This document shows positions 20,355 through 31,372 of a stretch of 64,000 bases of DNA, piece after piece. Each line of letters opens with the position of its first letter. The stretch's first letter is position 1. Source of the DNA: Nitrospirota bacterium (GTDB taxonomy: Bacteria > Nitrospirota > Nitrospiria > SBBL01 > JAADHI01); contig JAJDBW010000077.1 in the NCBI GenBank assembly GCA_029261155.1, positions 2,365 to 66,364 on the forward strand, read 5' to 3'. The notes below the pieces were generated by a model. That model was not told where the DNA came from. It worked only from the letters and a program-made list of their open reading frames with translations, and did no database searches. A program made the translations under genes and the position numbers.

Positions 20355-21704
20355 TTACGAAAAAGCGGATACCGTGTCTTCATAAACACGATGTGGAAAA
20401 ACATCCCTCGATTGTAGTTGGCCTTTTGGTTGATCAATTCCATACGGGACTTTTGTGTTAAGCAGTTGCGCTATGGCATCGCTCGCAATTAAGGCACCGT
20501 CTATGCTGAGTCCTGCTTCTTCCGGAGAGACGTGCTTACCTCCCTCTAGACCCTCTTGAATTTTTTTCAGGAGGATGGAAGCGTTTATCTTTTGTGGGTG
20601 AATCATTTCGACGAGGCCGCGCACGGCGAGGCGGCCTGCACGGATGAGTTGTTCAACCCGTGGTTTGATATGGGGGACAATAATTGCGCGTTTGTTCAAG
20701 GAAAGAATTTCGCAAATAGAGTTATATCCGCCTTTTGAAATCACAAGGTCGGCTGCGTTTAGATAGCTGAACATATTGATCGTTGAATCTAGAATCGTAA
20801 AGTTCAGACCCTTGGATTGATAGGCTTTGAGCTGCCTGCGTTTCGGCATAGACATCAGCGGGCCGGGAATGACGATTGAATCGAAGGGAAGGTTGTCGGA
20901 ATTTTGTGATTGTGAGAGCGTTTTTAAATAGAAGTCCAGGAGCTCAAATCCATCCTCCCCACCCCCTGCAGTGACAACGACGAGCCGATTGGTTTTCAAA
21001 TTCAAGGAGCGACGAAGCTGCTCCTTGGGCAGAGTTGGGGAGGTGCGGCCGATAAAGCCGCAAGAGATTATTTTCTGCTCTATATTTCCCGAAAGCCGAT
21101 ACTCACTCACTGGATCGTAAATCTCCCGATTCCCATAATGTAAAATTAAATTGTAATGATTTTCTAATAGTGCATGTATACCCTGATCTCTCCATTGACC
21201 GCGGATTGTATCTTTACCATGAGGGGCATCCATACATTCTGGGATCGGGATTTCAGACCGGTCGTCCTCGCGGGCGATCATGGCATTGTCTTCAATGTCG
21301 CACATACCGAGGACCAGCTTCGTTTCGGGCCGCTCGTTCTGAAGATAGTGAAGAGAAGGAAGCAACTCGCCTCGAACGCCAGCGGGCGCTTTATCGACCA
21401 AAACGAGGTCTGGCTTGAAAAATCGCATCGCATCCAGAATCATTTTCTCCCGCAAGGTTTTTAGCGCATCGATCTGAAGTAGAAGAGAGGGTGCGTGGAA
21501 TTTTTTTTGAGAAGGCTTATCGATGTCTGGCAATTTGATGAAGTCGAGCCGGCTTGGCAAGGTAAAGCAGCTCGGTTGGGGGGTTCCGGAAACCACGAGT
21601 TGCGAGGCATGAGGGAAATCCGAGGCCAGTTGTTCCGCAATGGCGAGAGTTCTCCGGATGTGTCCGACGCCATAAGTATCGTGAGAATAATGAAAAATCC
21701 GCAT
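20355..21704 (-). CDS. MurG/GT28-like glycosyltransferase (COG4671-like), first gene of the operon
   Basis: The track ORF starts at 21806. ATG at 21704 (MRIFHYSHDTYGVGHIRRTLAI) aligns with the N-termini of the paralogs. GGYNSICEILSLNKRAIIVPHIKPRVEQLIRAGRLA tail. Confidence 0.65.
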   Translation of the reverse strand: MRIFHYSHDTYGVGHIRRTLAIAEQLASDFPHASQLVVSGTPQPSCFTLPSRLDFIKLPDIDKPSQKKFHAPSLLLQIDALKTLREKMILDAMRFFKPDLVLVDKAPAGVRGELLPSLHYLQNERPETKLVLGMCDIEDNAMIAREDDRSEIPIPECMDAPHGKDTIRGQWRDQGIHALLENHYNLILHYGNREIYDPVSEYRLSGNIEQKIISCGFIGRTSPTLPKEQLRRSLNLKTNRLVVVTAGGGEDGFELLDFYLKTLSQSQNSDNLPFDSIVIPGPLMSMPKRRQLKAYQSKGLNFTILDSTINMFSYLNAADLVISKGGYNSICEILSLNKRAIIVPHIKPRVEQLIRAGRLAVRGLVEMIHPQKINASILLKKIQEGLEGGKHVSPEEAGLSIDGALIASDAIAQLLNTKVPYGIDQPKGQLQSRDVFPHRVYEDTVSAFS

Positions 21705-21852
21705 GTCGTTCTTCCTTTCCGATAACGATCGAGATGAGGTTTTGGCCGGCCACTCCGGCTGGCCAAATGCCCTAAAATAAACCTTGAATTCTACTTTCTT
21801 GAACATTCCTCAATTCATCTAACGCATGCATTGAAGCGTCTGAAGCAATGAG

Positions 21853-22200
21853 TCAGTTGCAGTTTTGGATTGGTACTTTTGTGAGAACATGATCTCCTGT
21901 CGCATTCTGGTTAACCAAAAAACATTCTCCATTTGTGTCAAGGTGAAAGGTTTTGTGCGTGGCGCTGGGTGCCCTTATGTCTAATTCACGTTCCGGGAGC
22001 GTGTTCACAATTATAGATCCGACAATGGTGCCGAGAATGATCCCTTCGACGACATGATGTGAATGGTGACCGAATCTAAAAAGGTGTTTCATTTCATGTC
22101 CTCGCCCGTGACGGCCACCATGCCCACCTTTGGCTATCGCAGGTGCTGCCGCAACAAACACGCTTAGTGATAATACGATGATCCAAGTTGTCCATTTCAT
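21853..22200 (-). CDS. Small secreted His-rich protein, unknown function
   Basis: ATG at 22200 is preceded by a GGAGG-type RBS. MKWTTWIIVLSLSVFVAAAPAIA is a signal peptide. It is followed by KGGHGGRHGRGHEMKHLFRFGHHSHH, a Gly-rich hydrophobic segment, and two Cys near the C-terminus. Confidence 0.5.
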   Translation of the reverse strand: MKWTTWIIVLSLSVFVAAAPAIAKGGHGGRHGRGHEMKHLFRFGHHSHHVVEGIILGTIVGSIIVNTLPERELDIRAPSATHKTFHLDTNGECFLVNQNATGDHVLTKVPIQNCN

Positions 22201-22391: not shown

Positions 22392-23498
22392 CTAAAGATC
22401 CTCGATTCTGATTGCTAAGTCCCCGAATAGGTGAACCTCGACATTCGGGGTCGCCGATAGAAGCTGCTGTAGGGTTTCCGGCAAACTGCCAAAAGTTCGG
22501 TCGTTGTCCAATTCAACACCGCGTACCCGTTCGATCATGGAATCGTCGATCAGGGTGTTGGCGTTCACCCGCACCGTGCGCCCGTTAATGACGAAGGAGT
22601 CCGCCGTCACATTGCTTACCACGCCGACGACTTCGTTGCCGTTGCTTCGACTGCTGCTGTTGCTGCTGGAAAAATCGTCTTCGCGTTCGATGCGCGTGGC
22701 GTCGATGGCCGTTTCTGAAATGGCGTTTCCCTTCACTTCGACGAACTGCCCTTCAACCAGGCCGGTATTGCCGAAATTGTCATCGAGGTCGCTTGTATCG
22801 AAGGTCACCGTCAGGCTGTTGATTTCAAACTGGCCGCCATTCAAGTTGCGGACAAATCCTTTGACCTCGCCCTCGCCGGCATTGCGATTGCCGACGCCGA
22901 TACGGTCGCGGTTGTCGACATCTTCAATGCGGCTCGCTTCTAGTCCGTTGCCGGTGGGGAAGCCGTTGACTTCCACAAGCATGCCGGCTCTGAGTAATTG
23001 GTCGAGTGTCTCGCTTAGGTTGCCGAAGGGCAGGTCGTTGTCGATTTCGCCGCCGCGCACGCGTTCGATGATGGAATCGTCGATGATAGTATTACGCGTG
23101 ACCGTTACCGTCTGGCCGAGCGCCACAAAGGAACCCTCCGCTGCAGAAACTTGGGTGATGGCGCCGACCAGCTCGTTGTCGACGCTGATACTGTTGGCCA
23201 CGCCATTGCTGCTGTCTGATCTGCTGCCGCGAACCGCGACGATCTGGCCCAAGCCCAGATATTGGCGCAGCTGATTGTCGCTCGGCCGGTCCACGATGAG
23301 CGACCCATCGTCCGCTGAGACAATGCGCGAATTCTCGGTTTCGTAGCGCACGCCGTTGACGATAATGCTGCCGAAGCCGCTAATGGCCCCGACGGAGGGG
23401 TCGGTCGAGGTGGAAGTCGAACCGTCGCCGCCGCAGGCGGTCAGCGCGGTCGCCATGGCAAGTACAATTATCGTTGTCGAAAATCGATGGGTATACAT
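22392..23498 (-). CDS. Lipoprotein built from repeated small beta-domain units (family I recall as DUF5666)
   Basis: 368-aa ORF. Lipobox ALTAC-GG. GFGSIIVNGVRYE head. Repeated units end in xVEVxG...A(S/T)RIExxD. There is an internal duplication: TVTRNTIIDDSIIERVRGGEIDNDLPFGNLSETLDQLL versus TVRVNANTLIDDSMIERVRGVELDNDRTFGSLPETLQQLL. Confidence 0.65.
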   Translation of the reverse strand: MYTHRFSTTIIVLAMATALTACGGDGSTSTSTDPSVGAISGFGSIIVNGVRYETENSRIVSADDGSLIVDRPSDNQLRQYLGLGQIVAVRGSRSDSSNGVANSISVDNELVGAITQVSAAEGSFVALGQTVTVTRNTIIDDSIIERVRGGEIDNDLPFGNLSETLDQLLRAGMLVEVNGFPTGNGLEASRIEDVDNRDRIGVGNRNAGEGEVKGFVRNLNGGQFEINSLTVTFDTSDLDDNFGNTGLVEGQFVEVKGNAISETAIDATRIEREDDFSSSNSSSRSNGNEVVGVVSNVTADSFVINGRTVRVNANTLIDDSMIERVRGVELDNDRTFGSLPETLQQLLSATPNVEVHLFGDLAIRIEDL

Positions 23499-23534
23499 GA
23501 TTTCTTCTCTTGTTTGTTCGGTTGTATATTTGGC

Positions 23535-23565
23535 TTTTTGGCCGGCCGAAGCGGCCGGCCAAAAA
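23535..23565. terminator. Bidirectional intrinsic terminator hairpin
   Basis: TTTTT-GGCCGGCC-GAAGC-GGCCGGCC-AAAAA. It has a perfect 8-bp GC stem, a 5-nt loop, and T and A runs on either side. It lies 9 nt downstream of the stop of the gene at 23574-25034. Confidence 0.75.
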
Positions 23566-23573
23566 GTCCTAGA

Positions 23574-25034
23574 TTAATCCTCGAATTCCACTTCCTCGGC
23601 AGTGATAACGCCGCCTAAGAATGTCCCTTTGGTCTTGACCAGCGTCCCAATCTTCGCCTGGGAGAAGAAGGTCGCTGCCGTGATGGGGGCATCATTTACA
23701 TCTTTAAAGACTGCCCCGGATGTATTCACGCTGAGGCCCAAGAGCGTGAGGTTGGGATTGGCGAGCGCTTCGACGGGCGCTTGGAGACGGACGGGTTTTC
23801 CTTGGTCGTCGTTGTTCCGTTCGACCCGTGTAGCGGTCACGACGCCGTTCTTGGAAAGGTAGCCTCGGATTTCCAAGCGGTCTCCGGCGGTGATCGCAGA
23901 GAAGGCGATGGTTCCACTATCCTTATCCTCGAGCCGGGCCGCGCCGTTAATCACCACAGCCTTTCCTAGAAGGGTGACGGTGTTGAGGCCGGAGCTGCTA
24001 ACGCTTTCGACATTGGCTTCGATCCTGATCTGGTTTTCGTGGAATTTCACTTTCCGGGCCACCAAGACGCCTGCGGCATTCATGCGGCCTTCCACTTCCA
24101 GACGTACATTGGCGGCGACATCGTCCTTTGCCCCATCCTCGAAGACAGCCGAGGCGGCATCGACTGCTTGACCATTGATCGAAAAGGCTGAGCTGGAGAT
24201 GAAGGTTGTGACCAAGCCTTCGATTTCCGCGACCTCGTTTGCGTTTAGGCCGGGAATTGCATCTTCTTTTTGAATGCGCGTGGCCGTCAATGCGGTACCG
24301 GCGGCACCGCGGGTGCCTTTGACTTCAACCAAGAGGCCGTTTGCCAGGTCGGCTTCTGTCATCCTTTCAAAGGTGATGGATCCGCTGTAATCGATGGACT
24401 GGCTGGCGAGCGTAAAGGTTTTGTTTGTCGTGTTGAGGTTCAAAACCGTTCCTCGCAATTCCAGCTCAGTGGTGCCTTGTACGAAGCTATCGTCCCGCTT
24501 TAGAATCAAAGTCGCTTGGACCTTGTCATCGGCAAAGGCCAGACCGCTGACTTCGAGCATGTCGTCATTCCCTAAAGTGGCGAAGGCGACCGTATTGCCG
24601 ACGTTATCTTCGATTTTGGTGGAATCATCGATAATTACCGTCCTGCCGAGCACCGTCAGGGTTTTTGTCGTATCGTCCCTGCCGTCGACTGGTCCTTCCA
24701 CTTCGTTTTCAAATTCGACTTCGGTGGCCGTTCCGGTGGTCCCATCGTCGTTGATCGTCCCTTTGATCGTGACCACTTGACCAATCCGGAGCTGATCTTG
24801 CGTTGTCCCGCTTTGATTGTCGTCGATAATGAAGGTTGCGCCGTCTGTGTTGAACTTGACGCCGCCTCGGATAATGCTTCCGAAGCCTTCGATGGTGCCT
24901 TGGCTGATGCCCGTGCCGCCGATGCCGCCGGAGGCGGTCGTTCCGCCGCCATTACTACTTCCGCTGCTCCCGCAGGAGGCGGAAAGGACTGCGACCAAGA
25001 ACAGGGGCAGGATGTTTTTTAATACGTGTTTCAT
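23574..25034 (-). CDS. Lipoprotein with at least 6 DUF5666-like repeat units
   Basis: ATG at 25034 (MKHVLKNILPLFLVAVLSASCGSS) gives a signal peptide plus lipobox and is preceded by GAGGAG. GFGSIIRGGVKFN head. Repeats include VTIKGTINDDGTTGTATEVEFE, VEVKGTRGAAGTALTATRIQKED, LEVEGRMNAAGVLVARKVKFHE, LEIRGYLSKNGVVTATRVERNN and VKTKGTFLGGVITAEEVEFED. Confidence 0.65.
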   Translation of the reverse strand: MKHVLKNILPLFLVAVLSASCGSSGSSNGGGTTASGGIGGTGISQGTIEGFGSIIRGGVKFNTDGATFIIDDNQSGTTQDQLRIGQVVTIKGTINDDGTTGTATEVEFENEVEGPVDGRDDTTKTLTVLGRTVIIDDSTKIEDNVGNTVAFATLGNDDMLEVSGLAFADDKVQATLILKRDDSFVQGTTELELRGTVLNLNTTNKTFTLASQSIDYSGSITFERMTEADLANGLLVEVKGTRGAAGTALTATRIQKEDAIPGLNANEVAEIEGLVTTFISSSAFSINGQAVDAASAVFEDGAKDDVAANVRLEVEGRMNAAGVLVARKVKFHENQIRIEANVESVSSSGLNTVTLLGKAVVINGAARLEDKDSGTIAFSAITAGDRLEIRGYLSKNGVVTATRVERNNDDQGKPVRLQAPVEALANPNLTLLGLSVNTSGAVFKDVNDAPITAATFFSQAKIGTLVKTKGTFLGGVITAEEVEFED

Positions 25035-25111
25035 GGTGAATCTCCTCTCGTTGTCGTTTTGTTGTGTGGTTGTTTTTTGTTTGTAAGGGTATGCACTGTT
25101 TTCGATTTTTT

Positions 25112-25948
25112 TCATGATGAGGGCTCTCCTTCTGTGAAATCTTCTTCAAAGTAGTAAATGCCGATGCCGGCACGTTTTCTTCCGCTGCCCTTAACCGTTG
25201 GGTTGAGGTCGCGATCCTGTTGGGCGAGCCAACGATCCATTTCTTCTAATAGTGCTTGGCCTTGCACTTCGGTCATCTCCCGAAAATGCCCTAAGATCTC
25301 CTGTGGCAGATTGTCGTAGGCAACTTTTCTTTGGAAATAATGATCTGTACTTGAGCAGATGTTGTGATCGATCGTGCCGATCAGATCTTTCACGTCGACC
25401 CCCAGGATGGCAAGCTTGTCACCCTCTTGAGTGTCGGGAAGAAAGGCCCGTGCCTTCAGGCGGATGGCGCCGTTTTCTAAACGTTCGACGCAGTCCGCGC
25501 GGAGCAATTCATCCATAAGCGCTCGGGCTGGGACATCTCCGCTGAATTGCTTCACGAGTTCGGAAAAGACCGCACCCTCTCCTTCCAAGGGGAGTTCGGC
25601 CGGTTGACCCGTCTTGTCCAAGAAGCGAGGGTCCCTTGCCCATCCGCTAATGACTCGCGCCGCCCGGTGATAGCGTTGCGTGGCCGATTCGCTTTCCTCG
25701 GTCAATGGAGGAAGGGCTTTGACGCGGCGGACTTCTTTCCGATTCAATCCGGTGATGATGGAGACCCGGGAATCGGTCTGTTTTCTACCAGGGAGACCAA
25801 ATTCTTCTGAAGCGACATCGACGAAGACCTTTTTCGCCAGATCGGCAAAGGCTCCATAGGGCACATTGTTGCGCAGGAAAATGCGGACCAAAGGCCGGAG
25901 GATCTTTAGTATGGTTCCAAATAAGATATGGTTTGTTTGTGTGTCCAT
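25112..25948 (-). CDS. Uncharacterised cytoplasmic protein (possibly the family I recall as DUF6502)
   Basis: The track ORF starts at 25963, but ATG at 25948 (MDTQTNHILFGTILKILRPLVRIFLRNNVPYGAFADLAKKVFVDVA...) has a GAGGA RBS 8 nt upstream. The segment SRVSIITGLNRKEVRRV may be HTH-like. No firm family call. Confidence 0.5.
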   Translation of the reverse strand: MDTQTNHILFGTILKILRPLVRIFLRNNVPYGAFADLAKKVFVDVASEEFGLPGRKQTDSRVSIITGLNRKEVRRVKALPPLTEESESATQRYHRAARVISGWARDPRFLDKTGQPAELPLEGEGAVFSELVKQFSGDVPARALMDELLRADCVERLENGAIRLKARAFLPDTQEGDKLAILGVDVKDLIGTIDHNICSSTDHYFQRKVAYDNLPQEILGHFREMTEVQGQALLEEMDRWLAQQDRDLNPTVKGSGRKRAGIGIYYFEEDFTEGEPSS

Positions 25949-25963
25949 ATTTTTGTTCCTCAT

Positions 25964-25995
25964 ATTATATTTGGGATTATAATCCCAAATATAAT
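25964..25995. promoter_or_regulatory. Perfect 32-bp palindrome, candidate operator or hairpin
   Basis: ATTATATTTGGGATTA|TAATCCCAAATATAAT, checked base by base. It lies between the stop of 26015-26335 and the RBS of 25112-25948. It shares the ATTTGGG/CCCAAAT core with the palindrome at 26491-26527. Confidence 0.6.
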
Positions 25996-26014
25996 GAAAG
26001 TCAAGAGGTATTTT

Positions 26015-26335
26015 TTAACCAAAAAGCAAACCCGCACCCCAAATCGTCGCCATCATGAGGAACAACCCGGTCATGGTTGTAAGCGCTGCGAACTTTCTCT
26101 CTTGGCTCATATCCGCCGTCATGAATTGTCTCAGCCGACTTTTATAATAATCGAAACCTCTCGTTGTCTTGGCGTGAGGGACGAACTCCACACCTAAATG
26201 ACAGAGGACCTCTCTCTGAACTCGCTTCAGGGTTTCCTTTTCTGTCTTCCCCGTGCTCATACAACCAGGAAGACTCGCAAGGGTGGCCTGATAACAGCCA
26301 CGGTCATTTTTCTTGAGTTCGATATTAAATTTCAT
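26015..26335 (-). CDS. HicB-fold (UPF0150-like) domain protein with a C-terminal transmembrane anchor
   Basis: 106-aa ORF. YQATLASLPGCMSTGKTEKETLKRVQREVL matches the HicB-like antitoxin N-domain pattern (xPdLPGCxsxGxTxEEA). The C-terminus FAALTTMTGLFLMMATIWGAGLLFG is a TM helix. There is no DNA-binding domain and no adjacent HicA. Confidence 0.55.
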   Translation of the reverse strand: MKFNIELKKNDRGCYQATLASLPGCMSTGKTEKETLKRVQREVLCHLGVEFVPHAKTTRGFDYYKSRLRQFMTADMSQERKFAALTTMTGLFLMMATIWGAGLLFG

Positions 26336-26392
26336 TGGTCTGCCCTCCTCTATCTCGTCGGTCTATGAACTCCTGTATGGTTAGCTAGTAAA

Positions 26393-26407
26393 GCATATCC
26401 GATGCCA
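26393..26407 (-). promoter_or_regulatory. Candidate sigma-54 (-24/-12) promoter
   Basis: The minus strand reads TGGCAT-CGGAT-ATGCT. GG and GC have the canonical spacing of consensus TGGCAC-N5-TTGCW. The -12 GC is 58 nt upstream of the ATG at 26335. An NtrC-type activator gene lies immediately upstream. Confidence 0.55.
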
Positions 26408-26490
26408 TATTGGTTTTAAGACATAAGATATTGATATTTAAGAGAAATTATGAGTCGTATGTTTTGGTGAATGTGTTATTGGAGGAAAGT

Positions 26491-26527
26491 GGGTTATTTA
26501 GCCCAAATAATTTGGGGTAAATAACCC
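26491..26527. promoter_or_regulatory. Imperfect 37-bp palindrome, candidate enhancer (UAS) for the sigma-54 activator
   Basis: GGGTTATTTAGCCCAAATAATTTGGGGTAAATAACCC. The outer 10-nt arms pair perfectly and the inner CCCAAAT/ATTTGGG arms also pair. The centre lies about 100 bp upstream of the candidate -24/-12 element, a typical bEBP distance. Confidence 0.45.
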
Positions 26528-26622
26528 AAATAAATCGTCACAGGTTTTTGGCGGATTGAGAATCTGTGGTTGATGACCGAATGAACTGGTTTTTAGGCAA
26601 GCTTGAAAAAGTGAAGGCTGAC

Positions 26623-28029
26623 TTATTTCTTGTCGTGAAGCGTGAGCTTATATTTATCGATGCGATAACGGAGGGTATCTCGGGAGAGGCCAAGTAATTG
26701 CGCCGCTTTCGTCACATTCCAGGCGGCCCGTTCCAAGGCTTGCGAAACCAGATTTTGCTCGATGGTTTCTAAGGAAATGCCTTCTTCGGGAAGGATAAAA
26801 TCATCGGGGTGGACTTGATTTTTTGTTTCTAGGTCGGTTTTGACTCCAGGTCTTCGTGTGAGTCGAATATCCACTGCGTCGATGAGCGTATGTTTGGAGA
26901 AAAAGACGGTTTGTTCAATTGTATTTTGAAGCTCACGTACATTACCGGGCCAGTCATATTTTATTAATAAGGTTTCCGCCTCTGGGCTCAATCGCCGTCC
27001 ATTTTTTCTATACCGTTGGGATTGTTGTTTCAAAAAGGTATTGGCGAGAAGGAGTATGTCCTTCCCACGCTCTCGTAGTGCTGGGGTTTCAAGTTGTATG
27101 ATTTGGATTCGAAAATAAAGATCAGAGCGGAATTTGCCTTTTTCGACCAATTCCGGGAGCGATTGGTTTGTTGCCGTAATGATTCGGACATCCATTTTGC
27201 GTTCCCGAAGACCGCCCAAGCGGCGGATCATCTTGTTCTCTATGGCTTTTAAAAGTTTCGCCTGGAGCGATATATCGATCTCCCCGATTTCGTCTAGGAA
27301 AAGGGTTCCGCCGTCCGCAGTCTCAAAAAGCCCTTGTTTTTTCTCTTTCGCATCGGTAAAAGCACCGCGTTCGTAACCAAAAAGTTCTGCCTCTAAAAGT
27401 TGATGGGGAATTGAAGCGCAATTCACTTCCACAAAGGGCATTTTTTTTCTGGGGCCATTATAATGCAAAGCTCGGGCGACCAGTTCTTTTCCCGTTCCGG
27501 TTTCTCCGGTGATGAGAACCCCTGGAGGGGCCCCTTCCGTTAATGTCCGTTCCGAGGCATTCAGCTTGTTGATCGAATCTTTTAAGGCAAGCATAGGCGC
27601 GGATTCGCCGATAAGATCTTGGCAAGACTCCTTCTCTTGATAATAGGAGAGTGCGCCTTCAAGTCGGGACAGCCCGATCACCTTATCGAGAAGGGCCTTC
27701 AATTCTTTGAGAACAAGCGGTTTACTGAGAAAATCGCTGGCCCCGGCCTTCATGGCGTCGACCGCGGTTTCCACATTTCCGTGGGCTGTCATCATGATGA
27801 CCTTGATCGAAGGATCCATCTTTTTTATTTCTGCGAGGATTTCCAGTCCATTTCGATCAGGGAGTTGAAGGTCTAATAAAACGAGGTCTGGCTTAAAATG
27901 GTCAATCTCTTGGAGGCCATGCCGCCCATCCAAAGCAATTCGAACATCGTAATCGTAACGTTCCAAGTAGAGTTTAATATTTTTAGCCAGCGTGGGTTCG
28001 TCTTCTATAATGAGAATTCCGTGCGACAT
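26623..28029 (-). CDS. Sigma-54-dependent response regulator (NtrC family: REC + AAA+ + Fis-type HTH)
   Basis: 468-aa ORF. LVLLDLQLPDRNG (REC), GETGTGKELVARALH (Walker A), ERGAFTDA (GAFTGA-type sigma-54 contact loop), WPGNVRELQN and C-terminal AAQLLGLSRDTLRYRIDKY (HTH). Confidence 0.9.
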   Translation of the reverse strand: MSHGILIIEDEPTLAKNIKLYLERYDYDVRIALDGRHGLQEIDHFKPDLVLLDLQLPDRNGLEILAEIKKMDPSIKVIMMTAHGNVETAVDAMKAGASDFLSKPLVLKELKALLDKVIGLSRLEGALSYYQEKESCQDLIGESAPMLALKDSINKLNASERTLTEGAPPGVLITGETGTGKELVARALHYNGPRKKMPFVEVNCASIPHQLLEAELFGYERGAFTDAKEKKQGLFETADGGTLFLDEIGEIDISLQAKLLKAIENKMIRRLGGLRERKMDVRIITATNQSLPELVEKGKFRSDLYFRIQIIQLETPALRERGKDILLLANTFLKQQSQRYRKNGRRLSPEAETLLIKYDWPGNVRELQNTIEQTVFFSKHTLIDAVDIRLTRRPGVKTDLETKNQVHPDDFILPEEGISLETIEQNLVSQALERAAWNVTKAAQLLGLSRDTLRYRIDKYKLTLHDKK

Positions 28030-28036
28030 GTAGCCT

Positions 28037-29392
28037 CTATTTGGAGATTGGGATTCGGATGGAAACCGTCGTGCCCTGATTTTCCTGGCTATCTAATTGA
28101 ATCGTTCCATTATAGCGGCCTATGATGCGTCTTACCAAGGACAATCCGACACCGACACCCGCGCGCTTTGTCGTGTAAAAGGGTTTAAACACCTTATCGA
28201 TTTGGTTTTTTGGTATCCCTTTTCCTGTATCTTTTATTTTTATGATGAGAAGGTTCTCATTTTTGATAAAGTGGTTCGAGATAAGGAGTTCGCCGCCCTG
28301 TGGCATGGCTTCAATGGCGTTTGAGATCAAACTAATAAAGATATGCCGCATCGAGATCTCGTCCGCCTTGATTTTTGGCATGGGTTCTTCTAAATCGAAG
28401 TGTACTTTAACCTCGCATTTATTTAGTCTTAGCTCAAATCCGCCGAGGGCAGATCGAAGCAAATTATTCATTTGAATCAAGGAAAGCGTCTCGCCGGATA
28501 CCTTGGCATAGGCCAGCAGTTCTTTAATCCAACCGGAGAGTCGGTCAACTTCCACAATGATATCTTGTGCCGCGTTACGAAAGAGAGGGGAGGGTTCTCC
28601 CTCCAATGAAAGCTCCGCGGATGACCGAATGGTTGCCAGCGGATTTCGAATGCCGTGAGCGACCGCAGAGGACATCTCTCCGATCGCCACCATCGTTTCC
28701 GATTCGATGAGTTGTCCTTGCTGTTGGCGGATTAGCAATGTGGCGCGTTTGACAATCCAAAAGAGCGAAACATATAAGAAAAGTCCACCCAAGACCGCCG
28801 TTGTCCAAATGAGTTGTTCGCCTTTTTTGATGGCATTAAATAAACTGATGGGTTCTTTGTAGACCTCGAAGGCGCCGAAGACCTTATCCCGGTTTTTGTT
28901 CCATATTGGAATATAGGTCTCAACAAAGAAAGGCACTTGTTTGTCGAAGACGTGTTCCCCTTTTAAGGGTTTACCGGATGTGCCGCTGGAGATGGCGATG
29001 GATCCGGCCAGGGCGCGAATGAGTTCCTCATTCGGCATGAAATTGTGATCGATGAAACGCGAATCATCCGACCAAAGGACTGTCCCTTGTTTGTCGTAAA
29101 TGTTGACTCGAACCACATCCGGCATCAAGGCAATGCGCTTAAAAAGATCTTCGAAACTTGCTTTCGTCTCTTGAGTCTGCGTTCCTTCAAAATACAGGCT
29201 GGCATCCGTGGCACCAATCAATCCGTCGGCAAATTCCTTCGTAATGACGGCATCGCGTTGGAGCATATTATGGGTGAGAAAACGGGCAAGGAGGAGAGAG
29301 GAAACGATAGAGATCAGTGCAATACAAACAAAACTGAGTATGGAAAACCAAGCCAGGAGATTAAAGGGTTTTTTTCTTGGGCCAGGTTTCAT
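28037..29392 (-). CDS. Sensor histidine kinase with a periplasmic sensing domain
   Basis: ATG at 29392 (MKPGPRKKPFNLLAWFSILSF...) is the likely start; the track ORF extends to 29533. Two TM helices flank a ~180-aa periplasmic segment. H-box EMSSAVAHGIRNPLATI, N-box LISNAIEAM, G-boxes DTGKGIP and GVGVGLSLV. Confidence 0.85.
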   Translation of the reverse strand: MKPGPRKKPFNLLAWFSILSFVCIALISIVSSLLLARFLTHNMLQRDAVITKEFADGLIGATDASLYFEGTQTQETKASFEDLFKRIALMPDVVRVNIYDKQGTVLWSDDSRFIDHNFMPNEELIRALAGSIAISSGTSGKPLKGEHVFDKQVPFFVETYIPIWNKNRDKVFGAFEVYKEPISLFNAIKKGEQLIWTTAVLGGLFLYVSLFWIVKRATLLIRQQQGQLIESETMVAIGEMSSAVAHGIRNPLATIRSSAELSLEGEPSPLFRNAAQDIIVEVDRLSGWIKELLAYAKVSGETLSLIQMNNLLRSALGGFELRLNKCEVKVHFDLEEPMPKIKADEISMRHIFISLISNAIEAMPQGGELLISNHFIKNENLLIIKIKDTGKGIPKNQIDKVFKPFYTTKRAGVGVGLSLVRRIIGRYNGTIQLDSQENQGTTVSIRIPISK

Positions 29393-29710: not shown

Positions 29711-31035
29711 CACTACTGTCCCAACGTTATACGAATAAATTCAATTGGTTATCGTCACCGAGGGTTTCATCTTCGTAATCAATTAAAGAAAGCACTTGTA
29801 ATATCGGCGTTTTCTCGAACAGCGACACACTTAAAATTTGTAGAATTGTGTAGAGGCTCCGGTCGAGCTTCAGACGTTTTTTGATGATGGCCACCAGAAC
29901 GTATACGGAGATAGCGATCCAGATTTGGGTTTTGACCGCGTTCTCGGTGGTTCCATAAAAGACTTTGATTCGCAGGTGCTGCTTGATCCACTTGAAGAAC
30001 AGCTCGACCTGCCAGCGACACTTGTACAGCTGGGCGATAACGATTGCCGGTAACTCGAAGTTGTTGGTTAGGAAGATGAGCTGTTTTTTGGTGACGGCAT
30101 CGACGTATCGGATGCGCCTGAGTTTTTCCGGATAGCCTTTCAAGGCATAGAATCCGGTGACGGTGATGACCTGATCTGTCCGTACGCCCGTTGACTTGTC
30201 CACTGGGAGTGAGTAGAGACGCTTGAAGACGAAATTGCTTTTTGCACGGGTAACGAAAAATGCCAGTGACTGATGAACCCGGTAGAGCCGGGCAAAATCG
30301 ACATAGGCTCGATCGAATATATAGATGGCCCCCGCCTCGAAGAAGAGGTGGTCGAGGATATTGACATCGTGGATTTTGCCTTCTGTTATGCTGATCACCA
30401 CTGGGATGTTGCCTCGCAGATCCAAGAGCGTATGGAGTTTGATGGCGGCTTTCTTTCGGCGAAATTTGGCCCAGGGAAAGACGGAGAGACAAAGATCGAT
30501 GGTCGTTGAATCGAAGGCGTAGACGGTCTGGTCGAGTTCTAATCCAAAGTTCTCGCTTGCATACAGCTGCCTGGCGACTGTAATCAGCACTTGGGCAAAG
30601 TCGGCGTAGATTCGGAAGTCGCGCACCTCGTTGGCATGGGCCAGGGTGTTTCGGGAGACCTTGCCCCGGAAGCCCATGTGATAAAGTTTGGACTTCGCCA
30701 CCCGTAGGCAGGCCTCGATGTCCCTGAGGCTCTCGCGGTATGTCAGCTGCGCGAAGGACAGACAGAGAAACTGATCCAGGCACGAGAAGGTGATCACCTT
30801 GTAGTTGCCGTTGTATCGTCGCACGCATTTTTGAAACTCGTAAGGTGGAGCAAAGTCCATCAGTTGAGCAAAGACGGTCCTCCCGATATTCATCAGCTAT
30901 CTCCTTCCGCGGGTATGCGGAAGTGTGGCCTATCGGAGGAAAATATTTCAAATCGAAAAATTGCATTTTGGAAGAAAACATCATATTTCTCTATGAATTA
31001 GATCAGCCAACCCATTCAACGTTGGGACACTACTG
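29711..31035 (-). mobile_element. Intact IS4-family insertion sequence (1325 bp)
   Basis: The terminal inverted repeats CACTACTGTCCCAACGTT (29711-29728) and the reverse complement of 31018-31035 (CAGTAGTGTCCCAACGTT) match at 16 of 18 positions. A single 388-aa DDE transposase ORF lies between them. The element is flanked by a 9-bp direct repeat. Confidence 0.85.
29727..30893 (-). CDS. IS4-family DDE transposase (DUF4372-type N-terminus)
   Basis: 388-aa ORF. MNIGRTVFAQLMDFAPPYEFQKCVRRYNGNYKVITFSCLDQFLCLSFAQLTYRESLRDIEACL is the typical N-terminus of this IS4 subgroup. YKCRWQVELFFKWIKQHL is the C-terminal DDE (E-containing) motif region. Confidence 0.85.
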   Translation of the reverse strand: MNIGRTVFAQLMDFAPPYEFQKCVRRYNGNYKVITFSCLDQFLCLSFAQLTYRESLRDIEACLRVAKSKLYHMGFRGKVSRNTLAHANEVRDFRIYADFAQVLITVARQLYASENFGLELDQTVYAFDSTTIDLCLSVFPWAKFRRKKAAIKLHTLLDLRGNIPVVISITEGKIHDVNILDHLFFEAGAIYIFDRAYVDFARLYRVHQSLAFFVTRAKSNFVFKRLYSLPVDKSTGVRTDQVITVTGFYALKGYPEKLRRIRYVDAVTKKQLIFLTNNFELPAIVIAQLYKCRWQVELFFKWIKQHLRIKVFYGTTENAVKTQIWIAISVYVLVAIIKKRLKLDRSLYTILQILSVSLFEKTPILQVLSLIDYEDETLGDDNQLNLFV

Positions 31036-31044: not shown

Positions 31045-31372
31045 TTATGTTAGGAGGTGTTGCAGGTGCTATGCCAATTTAAACTCAAGCGATTCCAAGA
31101 GCATAACGATTTGATATTCAATAGTTTTTTTAGGGGATTCCCCGGCCATGATATAAAGGCCTCAAGTCGGTGTTTTTTGGGGGTTTCACCCAACACGGAG
31201 CGGCCTAAGTAATGAAGGGCCATAAGGACCACTTGGGATGGCGCAAAGATGGACACGGACTCATATGATAATTAGGTCTGGGCGATTGTGCAGAACCTGA
31301 TTGGCCTTAAAGAAGACATCTTAGTGCGGGCTACGCTTGTGAAAGCGGTGAATCTATGGTAGTTTCAAAATA

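What the first reader, a model, noticed from the sequence alone, without database searches (positions are those of the whole stretch)
22392..29392. Candidate self-contained sigma-54 circuit: sensor kinase + NtrC-type activator, then palindromic UAS, then a -24/-12 promoter, then an operon of uncharacterised envelope proteins
Seen in sequence: (1) The HK (28037-29392) and the bEBP with a GAFTGA-type loop (26623-28029) are separated by 7 nt. (2) Just downstream of the bEBP stop lies the 37-bp near-palindrome GGGTTATTTAGCCCAAATAATTTGGGGTAAATAACCC. (3) About 100 bp further on lies TGGCAT-N5-ATGCT with exact GG/GC spacing, 58 nt before the ATG of the HicB-fold membrane protein. (4) Downstream, co-directional, are an uncharacterised protein and two lipoproteins built from DUF5666-like repeats. 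The first lipoprotein gene is closed by a strong terminator. Established knowledge: bEBPs bind inverted repeats about 80-150 bp upstream of -24/-12 promoters. Inference: the TCS directly controls this operon, whose products have no known function.
Basis: partly seen in the sequence, partly recalled or inferred. Interest (0 to 1): 0.65.

Follow-up and report, generated by a model that had tools for sequence, protein, structure and literature searches.

The report
Sigma-54 circuit feeding a self-regulated envelope operon

Summary
The HK and NtrC-type activator (GAFTDA loop) lie 7 nt apart. They are followed by a 39-bp palindrome (26490-26528), a sigma-54 motif (26392-26407), a 106-aa gene, DUF6502 and two DUF5666 lipoproteins.

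Comparative evidence supports the enhancer and promoter. In 9 of 12 loci with an orthologous activator, a paired GGG…CCC inverted repeat, an IHF-like box and TGGCAY-N5-TTGCT follow the activator gene, whatever gene lies downstream. There were 10 promoter hits where 0.5 were expected.

The circuit is not self-contained. DUF6502–DUF5666 is a two-gene cassette found across phyla. In 74 of 80 loci it carries its own TTGACA-17-TATAAT promoter inside a TGGGAWWWWWWTCCCA palindrome (window 25964-26004), and the mRNA is usually leaderless. The same operator precedes extra DUF5666 genes and GT28 glycosyltransferase genes elsewhere, so it marks a regulon. DUF6502 is the likely autorepressor, by inference.

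The 106-aa HicB-like tail-anchored protein is a real but rare gene family. The "strong terminator" is a conserved hairpin with no U-tract.

This is an ordinary kind of sigma-54 circuit, layered on an undescribed promoter-operator regulon.

The parts
28037..29392 (-). Sensor histidine kinase. It has two TM segments flanking a roughly 160-aa periplasmic domain, then HisKA and HATPase_c. The architecture is ZraS-like.
   Evidence: Pfam. The NCBIfam ZraS model aligns over the full length, 18-449, but scores 174 bits against a cut-off of 479. AtoS scores 181.6 against 646. Ortholog lengths are 448-452 aa.
26623..28029 (-). NtrC-family sigma-54 activator (bEBP). It has REC (Asp53), an AAA+ domain with a GAFTDA loop, and a Fis-type HTH.
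   Evidence: Pfam. GAFTDA is present in 115 of 120 homologs, and the recognition helix RDTLRYR is conserved. No NCBIfam equivalog cut-off is reached.
26490..26528 (.). 39-bp inverted repeat made of two GGG-N8-CCC sites 23 bp apart. It is centred about 128 nt upstream of the predicted sigma-54 start. Candidate enhancer (UAS).
   Evidence: The homologous paired repeat is found in 8 other bEBP-ortholog loci. It also scores 20.1 and 11.7 with the DUF6502-operator matrix, against a background maximum of 10.06.
26424..26436 (-). IHF-like box TATCAATATCTTA (matches WATCAANNNNTTR), between the enhancer and the promoter.
   Evidence: Read from the sequence. A similar (T)TTCAAT…TTA box sits at the same place in the orthologous modules. 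Binding was not tested.
26392..26407 (-). Sigma-54 promoter P1, TGGCAT-CGGAT-ATGCT. Predicted start is near 26381.
   Evidence: Unique in the window. Orthologous sites occur in 9 of 12 loci: 10 hits against 0.5 expected. Homology to the L171/L172 copies of the 106-aa gene starts exactly at TGGCAT.
26015..26335 (-). 106-aa protein with a HicB-like N-terminal domain and a C-terminal TM anchor.
   Evidence: Six full-length homologs at 37-60% identity. Pfam HicB_lk_antitox gives E 0.011, below the cut-off. Absent from L081.
25964..26004 (-). Sigma-70-type promoter P2. The -35 is TTGACT at 26004-25999, followed by a 17-nt spacer and the -10 TATAAT at 25981-25976. It is embedded in a perfect 32-bp palindrome (25964-25995) with core TGGGATTATAATCCCA (25972-25987).
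   Evidence: The operator is present in 74 of 80 loci. The -35 has at most 1 mismatch in 61 of 74. The operator matrix scores it 37.9.
25112..25963 (-). DUF6502 protein, the predicted HTH/winged-helix regulator. The likely start is ATG 25948, which has a GAGGAA Shine-Dalgarno.
   Evidence: Pfam. The gene call in the collection is 278 aa. The invariant block S60-R75 coincides with the predicted helix-turn-helix. Foldseek hits to IclR/BlcR are weak.
23574..25115 (-). DUF5666 lipoprotein a, with six OB-fold-like repeats. Its start overlaps the DUF6502 stop by 4 nt.
   Evidence: Pfam. The repeat model has pLDDT 93.6 and is a small beta-barrel with OB/S1/cold-shock-like matches.
23534..23566 (.). 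Conserved GC-rich intercistronic hairpin with no U-tail.
   Evidence: It is conserved in L081, where the flanking stem positions covary. A second copy lies at 21744-21764 with its flanks read.
22392..23498 (-). DUF5666 lipoprotein b, with lipobox LTAC and four repeats. Absent from L081.
21853..22200 (-). Small His-rich exported protein (GGHGGRHGRGHEMKH…HHSHH). Absent from L081.
   Evidence: No family match.

Best explanation
This is a two-layer control region.

Layer 1 is shown by conservation. Its mechanism is inferred from NtrC-family knowledge. The membrane kinase phosphorylates Asp53 of the NtrC-type activator. The activator binds the paired GGG…CCC inverted repeat (26490-26528). With an IHF-type bend at 26424-26436, it contacts sigma-54 polymerase at TGGCAT-N5-ATGCT (26392-26407). 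Transcription starts near 26381.

That transcript first encodes the 106-aa tail-anchored HicB-like protein. No terminator lies before DUF6502, so the transcript reads on into DUF6502-DUF5666. It may continue through a non-terminating hairpin into the second DUF5666 gene, the His-rich gene and the glycosyltransferase cluster.

Layer 2 has a shown architecture. The binder is inferred. DUF6502-DUF5666 is an autonomous cassette found across phyla. It has its own near-consensus sigma-70 promoter, and the -10 lies inside a TGGGAWWWWWWTCCCA palindrome. A dimeric regulator occupies this operator and represses the promoter. The most likely regulator is DUF6502 itself, since its invariant block is a predicted helix-turn-helix. 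The same operator marks a small regulon: extra DUF5666 lipoproteins, GT28-type glycosyltransferases and others.

The products are periplasmic lipoproteins built of OB-fold beads. Their context is exopolysaccharide and envelope synthesis in a biofilm organism. In this lineage the TCS adds a signal-dependent sigma-54 input upstream of a self-regulated operon.
For: TCS domains:
- Domains are assigned.
- The GAFTDA loop is conserved and tolerated (PMC4641369).

The sigma-54 module:
- The UAS, IHF-like box and sigma-54 promoter are conserved downstream of the activator in the window, L081, L083, L010, L085, L086, L167, L168 and L170.
- Matrix hits of 12.5 or more number 10 in 17 kb. The background rate of 0.031 per kb predicts about 0.5.
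- The module points into DUF6502 with no intervening gene in L081, L083 and L010.
- The 106-aa gene in L171/L172 has the same TGGCAT-N5-ATGCT at the same distance from its ATG. L174/L175 have TGGCATtaaatTTGCT.
- No terminator-like site lies on the minus strand between 26392 and 25963.

The sigma-70 promoter and operator:
- The operator is present in 74 of 80 loci.
- The -35 TTGACA has at most 1 mismatch in 61 of 74.
- The spacer is 16-18 nt.
- An in-frame ATG lies 1-5 nt after the palindrome in 45 of 74.
- Operator-bearing promoters also precede other DUF5666 and GT28 genes, some as tandem pairs.
- The DUF6502 invariant block S60-R75 coincides with helices 59-66 and 70-77 of the model. A winged-helix-like unit spans 128-164.
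- The top-probability fold hits are wHTH regulators.

The products:
- The DUF5666 repeat is an OB-like barrel.
- A glycan cluster lies downstream.
- A DUF5666 protein is among the 20 most abundant proteins of Dissulfuribacter (PMC13490349).
Against: - There is no transcript data. Only four DNA metagenome runs hold this sequence, so neither start site is mapped.
- The window's sigma-54 site is the weakest of the set (12.9, with A in place of T in the -12 element). On its own it is not statistically significant.
- L007, L084 and L169 have an orthologous activator but no good site.
- DNA binding by DUF6502 is not shown. Foldseek E-values are 0.15 or worse. No PDB or Pfam sequence relative exists beyond DUF6502 itself.
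- The window and L081 enhancer sites score as moderate DUF6502-type operators, so which protein binds them is ambiguous.
- rpoN and ihf were not looked for in this genome.
Confidence: 0.62

Rival explanations
1. The 39-bp palindrome is not the activator's enhancer, or not only that. It is a tandem pair of operators for the regulator of the DUF6502 regulon. That regulator would modulate the sigma-54 promoter, or loop to the P2 operator about 520 bp downstream.
For: - Both half-elements are TGGG-N8-CCCA with TTTGGG/CCCAAA flanks, like the P2 operator.
- They score 20.1 and 11.7 with the operator matrix, above every one of 470,000 background positions (maximum 10.06). The better one lies inside the range of true operators (minimum 13.9).
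- Tandem operator pairs 24-26 bp apart precede regulon genes in L008, L065 and L077. The window pair is 23 bp apart.
Against: - Homologous paired repeats sit at the same place downstream of orthologous activators that have no DUF6502 nearby (L085, L086, L167, L168, L170). Those repeats score negative with the operator matrix.
- Positions 5 and 12 of the core, almost invariant A and T in true operators, are T/C and C/A here.
- No -35 hexamer accompanies the sites, unlike every other operator copy.
- The centre at about -128 suits an enhancer.
Confidence: 0.2
2. The sigma-54 promoter serves only the 106-aa gene. DUF6502-DUF5666 is expressed solely from its own sigma-70 promoter, so the TCS does not control the lipoprotein operon.
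For: - The 106-aa gene family carries a sigma-54 promoter in unrelated contexts (L171/L172, L174/L175).
- DUF6502-DUF5666 has its own promoter almost everywhere.
- A repressor on the P2 operator could block read-through.
- In a long transcript the palindrome folds into a -18.6 kcal/mol hairpin directly before the first ATG, at 25963.
Against: - In L081, L083 and L010 the same promoter is followed by no conserved gene before DUF6502.
- The 106-aa stop is only 10 nt from the P2 -35, with no terminator between them.
Confidence: 0.15
3. The -24/-12 motif and the palindrome are chance matches without function.
For: A single match in 64 kb is reached by 19 of 100 shuffles.
Against: Position-specific conservation in 9 of 12 orthologous loci, and in the L171/L172 paralogous context.
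Confidence: 0.03

Closest known systems
ZraS-ZraR / zraP envelope-stress system of E. coli and Salmonella
   Same: - A two-TM periplasm-sensing kinase and an NtrC-family activator are encoded together.
- They drive an adjacent sigma-54 promoter for small envelope proteins (PMC4987338).
- The ZraS model aligns over the kinase's full length.
- A His-rich exported protein lies in the cluster.
   Different: - It is not an ortholog. Scores are 174 against 479 for ZraS and 338 against 760 for ZraR.
- The target is co-directional and downstream, not divergent.
- There is no ZraP homolog.
- The target operon has a second promoter of its own.
NtrB-NtrC at glnAp1/glnAp2 (tandem sigma-70 and sigma-54 promoters). 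The details are from general knowledge and were not tested here.
   Same: - Paired dimer sites lie about 110-140 bp upstream of a -24/-12 promoter.
- One operon has both a sigma-54 and a sigma-70 promoter.
   Different: - Here the sigma-54 promoter is the distal one.
- The sigma-70 promoter has its own separate palindromic operator.
- The NtrC equivalog cut-off is not reached (381.5 against 558.6).
Autoregulated HTH repressors whose operator overlaps the -10 of their own promoter, for example IclR-type or antitoxin-type regulators
   Same: - A palindrome covers the -10 and the start of the regulator's own gene.
- The cassette is multi-copy, spread across phyla, and carries its own promoter.
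   Different: - DUF6502 has no sequence relative of known structure or function.
- Fold hits are weak.
- The mRNA is leaderless in most loci.
- The partner is a periplasmic OB-fold lipoprotein, not a toxin.
HicB antitoxins
   Same: The N-terminal 47 residues or so of the 106-aa protein resemble the HicB-like fold.
   Different: - There is no DNA-binding C-terminus. A TM anchor replaces it.
- There is no HicA partner.
- The Pfam score is below the cut-off.

Membership tests
NtrC-family (group I) bacterial enhancer-binding protein | REC, AAA+ Sigma54_activat and Fis-type HTH domains in that order | tested here: met
   PF00072 E 6e-32, PF00158 E 6e-64, PF02954 E 8e-16.
NtrC-family (group I) bacterial enhancer-binding protein | GAFTGA loop that contacts sigma-54 | tested here: met
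   The loop reads GAFTDA, as in 115 of 120 homologs. It is listed among the variants that keep activity (PMC4641369).
Sigma-54-dependent promoter | GG at -24 and GC at -12, exactly 10 nt apart, within TGGCAC-N5-TTGCW | tested here: met
   TGGCATCGGATATGCT scores 12.9 of a maximum 18.2.
Sigma-54-dependent promoter | Conserved at the same place in orthologous loci | tested here: met
   9 of 12 loci, with 10 hits against about 0.5 expected.
Sigma-54-dependent promoter | rpoN- and activator-dependent transcription start | not testable with these tools
   No RNA runs hold this sequence.
ZraSR (equivalog) | NCBIfam equivalog score cut-offs | tested here: not met
   ZraS 174 against 479. ZraR 338 against 760.
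AtoSC (equivalog) | NCBIfam equivalog score cut-offs | tested here: not met
   AtoS 181.6 against 646. AtoC 387.5 against 714.
Intrinsic (Rho-independent) terminator | GC-rich stem-loop | tested here: met
   15-bp arms, -31.6 kcal/mol.
Intrinsic (Rho-independent) terminator | U-rich tract directly 3' of the stem | tested here: not met
   The stem is followed by AAAAAGCCAAAT. It is not listed by the scan. In L081 the same hairpin lies 38 nt before the next ATG.
HicB antitoxin | HicB-like N-terminal fold | tested here: inconclusive
   PF15919 gives E 0.011 and 16.3 bits, against a cut-off of 27. The homolog P0241 carries a weak precomputed hit.
HicB antitoxin | C-terminal DNA-binding domain and an adjacent HicA toxin gene | tested here: not met
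   The C-terminus is a hydrophobic anchor. No HicA-like neighbour in the window, L171 or L174.
DUF6502 (PF20112) and DUF5666 (PF18914) | Pfam gathering scores | tested here: met
   296 bits for DUF6502. 159 and 94.7 bits for the two DUF5666 proteins. The cut-off is 27 in each case.
Bacterial lipoprotein | Signal peptide ending in a lipobox, L-[AS]-[GA]-C | tested here: inconclusive
   Read by eye only. Protein b has LTAC. Protein a has LSASC, which is off-consensus. Homologs have LMAC, LAAC and AAGC. No predictor was run.

The most novel reading that the evidence does not exclude
DUF6502 founds an undescribed family of DNA-binding autoregulators. Through a leaderless promoter-operator conserved across phyla (TTGACA-17-TATAAT inside TGGGAWWWWWWTCCCA), it controls a regulon of periplasmic OB-fold-bead lipoproteins and GT28 glycosyltransferases for envelope or exopolysaccharide remodelling. 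In this Nitrospirota lineage the sigma-54 enhancer has drifted to resemble that operator. The TCS activator and DUF6502 would then meet on the same DNA and integrate two signals at one promoter.
Probability: 0.2. Interest if true: 0.7.

Novelty: new member of a known kind. Interest (0 to 1): 0.5.

Why it matters
The sigma-54 part is an ordinary NtrC-type local circuit. Its value is a clean, conservation-backed enhancer and promoter assignment for an unnamed clade of activators (GAFTDA loop; Nitrospirota and Ca. Manganitrophus).

The more useful result is the by-product. DUF6502-DUF5666 is found in thousands of genomes, and no paper in the searched library mentions DUF6502. It now has:
- a testable regulatory model, with a defined 16-32-bp operator, a leaderless near-consensus promoter and a candidate autorepressor;
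- a fold assignment for DUF5666 as strings of OB-like barrels;
- a link to glycan-synthesis clusters.

This gives experimenters concrete DNA probes and reporter designs for two families of unknown function.

Tried and rejected
- A scan of metagenome contigs with the activator protein returned only the already-known L081 contig plus generic activators at about 40% identity. It added no orthologs.
- A search for RNA-seq runs to map start sites found only four DNA biofilm metagenomes.
- A PDB sequence search with the DUF6502 profile gave no hit at E up to 10. Relaxed Pfam gave nothing but DUF6502. Foldseek on the full-length model gave no hit below E 0.15.
- A profile of the 106-aa family found no copy in any DUF6502 or activator locus. 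The idea that the small gene is a regular member of the cassette was rejected.
- A general sigma-54 promoter upstream of DUF6502 was rejected. Only 4 of 77 loci score 12 or more on the forward strand, against 1 of 77 on the reverse.
- Aligning the region upstream of the kinase with L081 gave no useful conservation.
- A literature search for the operator sequence and for DUF6502 found nothing.

Full report
**What is there**

All genes of the finding lie on the minus strand.
- The kinase (28037-29392) has HisKA and HATPase_c.
- The activator (26623-28029) has REC, Sigma54_activat, AAA_lid_14 and HTH_8.
- The two genes are 7 nt apart.
- Neither protein reaches any NCBIfam equivalog cut-off. The nearest models are AtoS/ZraS and AtoC/NtrC/PEP-CTERM regulator/ZraR. 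The ZraS model aligns over the whole kinase.
- The sigma-54-contact loop reads GAFTDA, not GAFTGA. 115 of the 120 best homologs share this. A survey of Desulfovibrio activators lists GAFTDA among the variations that would maintain an activator's ability to activate transcription (PMC4641369).

Downstream lie, in order:
- a 106-aa ORF (26015-26335);
- DUF6502 (25112-25963);
- a 513-aa DUF5666 protein (23574-25115);
- a 368-aa DUF5666 protein (22392-23498);
- a small His-rich exported protein (21853-22200).

A co-directional cluster follows: two GT28-like glycosyltransferases, a GT1, two heparinase II/III-like proteins and four APH-like kinases. An IS4/IS5-type transposase gene sits upstream of the kinase.

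The near-palindrome is real. It is the best inverted repeat in the 8.5 kb, with 19-nt arms, 95% complementary, at 26490-26528.

TGGCATCGGATATGCT (26407..26392) is the only match to TGGCAY-N5-WTGCW in the window. By itself it is unremarkable: 0.19 were expected, and 19 of 100 shuffles gave a match.

The 'terminator' at 23534-23566 is a very stable hairpin, -31.6 kcal/mol with z -6.3. Its T-run is on the 5' side and an A-run follows the stem, on either strand. It therefore lacks the defining U-tail, and the terminator scan did not list it.

**Test by conservation: the sigma-54 module**

I collected 12 loci whose activator is 60-86% identical to the window's, counting the window itself.

In nine of them the activator gene is followed by three elements in order (alignment A2):
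- a pair of GGG(G)-N6-8-CCC(C) elements in inverted or tandem arrangement;
- about 70-100 nt containing an IHF-like (T)TTCAAT…TTA box;
- TGGCAY-N5-TTGC.

The nine loci are the window, L081, L083, L010, L085, L086, L167, L168 and L170.

With a simple sigma-54 matrix, the background rate of scores of 12.5 or more is 0.031 per kb per strand, measured over 3.07 Mb. The 17 kb downstream of these activators holds 10 such sites where about 0.5 are expected. The window's site is the weakest, at 12.9 against 15.7-18.2.

The module is present whatever gene follows:
- DUF6502 in the window, L081, L083 and L010;
- small membrane or secreted proteins in L086, L167, L168 and L170.

It therefore travels with the activator, as an enhancer-promoter pair should.

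The activator's recognition helix (RDTLRYR) is conserved across the clade. This fits the conserved GGG/CCC arms. In the window the repeat is centred about 128 nt upstream of the predicted start (about 26381). The IHF-like box TATCAATATCTTA is centred near -49. These positions are inferred from the usual -24/-12 geometry.

**The 106-aa ORF**

It is a real gene of a rare family. A full-library search found six full-length relatives at 37-60% identity. All share a HicB-like N-terminus and a hydrophobic C-terminal anchor. The Pfam HicB-like hit is below threshold (E 0.011).

The gene is missing from the closest relative, L081. There the enhancer and promoter are conserved, but about 210 nt including the ORF are absent.

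Other copies sit in different settings:
- In L171/L172 the homolog is in a region rich in TA modules and IS elements. DNA similarity to the window (69% over 385 nt) begins exactly at TGGCAT. The site there is TGGCATcaaatATGCT, at the same distance from the ATG.
- L174/L175 have TGGCATtaaatTTGCT upstream.
- L173 instead has the DUF6502-type promoter-operator upstream.

So this small gene is repeatedly placed under one or the other of the two control systems described here.

DUF6502 followed by DUF5666 is a two-gene cassette found in about 75 of 80 genome loci. The loci come from Nitrospirota, Desulfobacterota, Gammaproteobacteria and others. Only L007 and L010 of those 80 have the TCS next to it.

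While scoring sigma-54 sites I saw a recurring palindrome. TGGG-N8-CCCA lies directly upstream of DUF6502 in 67 of 80 loci, and in 74 of 80 with one mismatch allowed. Its core is TGGGAWWWWWWTCCCA, with TT and AA flanks. Three further features go with it:
- A TTGACA hexamer with at most 1 mismatch, in 61 of 74 loci, sits 16-18 nt upstream of the TATAAT-like hexamer in the middle of the palindrome.
- The in-frame ATG begins 1-5 nt after the palindrome in 45 of 74 loci. That implies a leaderless mRNA.
- The window copy is TTGACT-17-TATAAT (26004-25976), inside a perfect 32-bp palindrome at 25964-25995. Here and in L001, L011 and L013 a short leader with a Shine-Dalgarno precedes a second ATG.

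The same promoter-operator precedes other genes near DUF6502:
- further DUF5666 lipoproteins (L005, L049, L065);
- GT28-like glycosyltransferases homologous to window ORF 20355-21806 (L008, L015);
- a 352-aa protein (L044, L066, L055, L009).

Some of these are tandem operator pairs 24-26 bp apart (L008, L065, L077). This is the signature of a dimeric regulator's regulon.

DUF6502 is the only protein that always accompanies the operator. Its invariant block (S60-R75, SRVSIITGLxRKEVRR) coincides with helices 59-66 and 70-77 of an AlphaFold model (pLDDT 77). A winged-helix-like unit lies at 128-164. Foldseek gives only weak matches, but the highest-probability ones are wHTH regulators such as BlcR and IclR. 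No sequence relative exists in the PDB or in other Pfam families. No paper in the library mentions DUF6502 or the operator sequence.

Autoregulation by DUF6502 is therefore an inference, not a result.

**An ambiguity**

A matrix built from 65 operators gives these scores:

| Site | Score |
|---|---|
| Window P2 operator | 37.9 |
| Window enhancer half-elements | 20.1 and 11.7 |
| L081 enhancer half-elements | 17.9 and 15.9 |
| Highest of 470,000 background positions | 10.06 |
| Enhancers of the other seven activator loci | negative |

So in the window and L081 lineage only, the enhancer looks like a moderate DUF6502-type operator. There it has GGG-N8-CCC geometry and TTTGGG/CCCAAA flanks.

The placement, the homology to the other enhancers and the lack of a -35 all favour the enhancer reading. 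Binding by the operator protein, alone or together with the activator, cannot be excluded. I keep this as rival 1.

**The products**

The ten repeats of the two DUF5666 proteins were aligned. They gave a confident model, pLDDT 93.6, of a six-stranded small barrel. The barrel matches OB/S1/cold-shock-type domains with TM 0.55-0.78 and probability up to 1.0, but E-values of only 0.03-0.5.

The proteins are thus membrane-tethered strings of OB-like beads in the periplasm. A DUF5666 protein is among the 20 most abundant proteins of Dissulfuribacter thermophilus (PMC13490349). That fits the near-consensus promoter.

The ligand is unknown. Given the attached glycan-synthesis cluster and the biofilm origin, a role in binding envelope glycan is my guess only.

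**Extent of the transcription unit**

No terminator-like site lies between P1 and DUF6502. The 106-aa stop is 10 nt from the P2 -35.

The hairpin after the first DUF5666 gene is conserved in L081. The core is identical and the flanking stem positions covary (CTTTTT/AAAAAG against GGATTT/AAATCC). There it is followed 38 nt later by the GT28 start.

The window has a second copy of the hairpin at 21744-21775, just before the true GT28 start at 21704. The 1.8 kb between the two copies holds the second DUF5666 gene and the His-rich gene, and it is an insertion relative to L081. The hairpin looks like an intercistronic stabiliser or attenuator rather than an operon end.

**Verdict**

The circuit is a new member of the NtrC-type family of local circuits. 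It is not self-contained, however. It feeds from upstream into an operon that has its own sigma-70 promoter-operator, conserved across phyla. That second layer, with DUF6502 as the probable autoregulator, is the less expected part of the locus.

No transcript data were available, so all starts and dependencies remain predictions.

Noticed in passing
window 29727-30893 (-): An IS4/IS5-type transposase gene (DUF4372 and DDE_Tnp_1) lies 335 nt upstream of the kinase ATG. It is absent from the closest relative, L081, which has a DUF4202 gene there. It may have displaced the native promoter of the TCS operon.
   Followed up: partly
window 21744-21775 and 23534-23566: Two copies of the GGCCGGCC-N5-GGCCGGCC hairpin flank a 1.8-kb segment holding the second DUF5666 gene and the His-rich gene. 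L081 has one hairpin and lacks the segment. The GT28 gene therefore starts at ATG 21704, not 21806.
   Followed up: yes
window 21853-22200 (-): A small exported protein has a His-rich stretch (GGHGGRHGRGHEMKH…GHHSHH). It has no family match and suggests metal binding. Together with the ZraS-like kinase it hints at a metal or envelope-stress theme.
   Followed up: no
window 1149-21704 (-): A long co-directional cluster holds GT28-like x2, GT1, heparinase II/III-like x2, APH-like kinases x4 and more. The gene order matches L081. It may be co-transcribed with DUF6502-DUF5666.
   Followed up: partly
L010 3058-3530: A second sigma-54 promoter, TGGCATattatTTGCT, lies right after the activator stop. 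It precedes a stand-alone receiver-domain gene. The enhancer and main promoter come after that gene.
   Followed up: no
L084 6411-6560: An orthologous activator is followed by an enhancer-like GGGG…CCC pair and by TGGCAT…TTGCA. The -24 and -12 elements are 7 nt too far apart, so the promoter may have decayed.
   Followed up: no
L008 11993-12032; L015 437; L044 2434; L066 2406; L009 9188: The DUF6502-type promoter-operator also precedes GT28-like glycosyltransferase genes and a conserved 350-aa protein of unknown function. This outlines a regulon.
   Followed up: partly
L171 1476-2390: The 106-aa gene homolog is followed by a conserved 304-aa membrane protein with no family. The region is dense in toxin-antitoxin genes and IS fragments.
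   Followed up: no
window 31061-31076 (-): A second sigma-54-like site, TGGCATAGCACCTGCA (score 12.9), lies just upstream of the transposase gene. It is probably a chance match.
   Followed up: no
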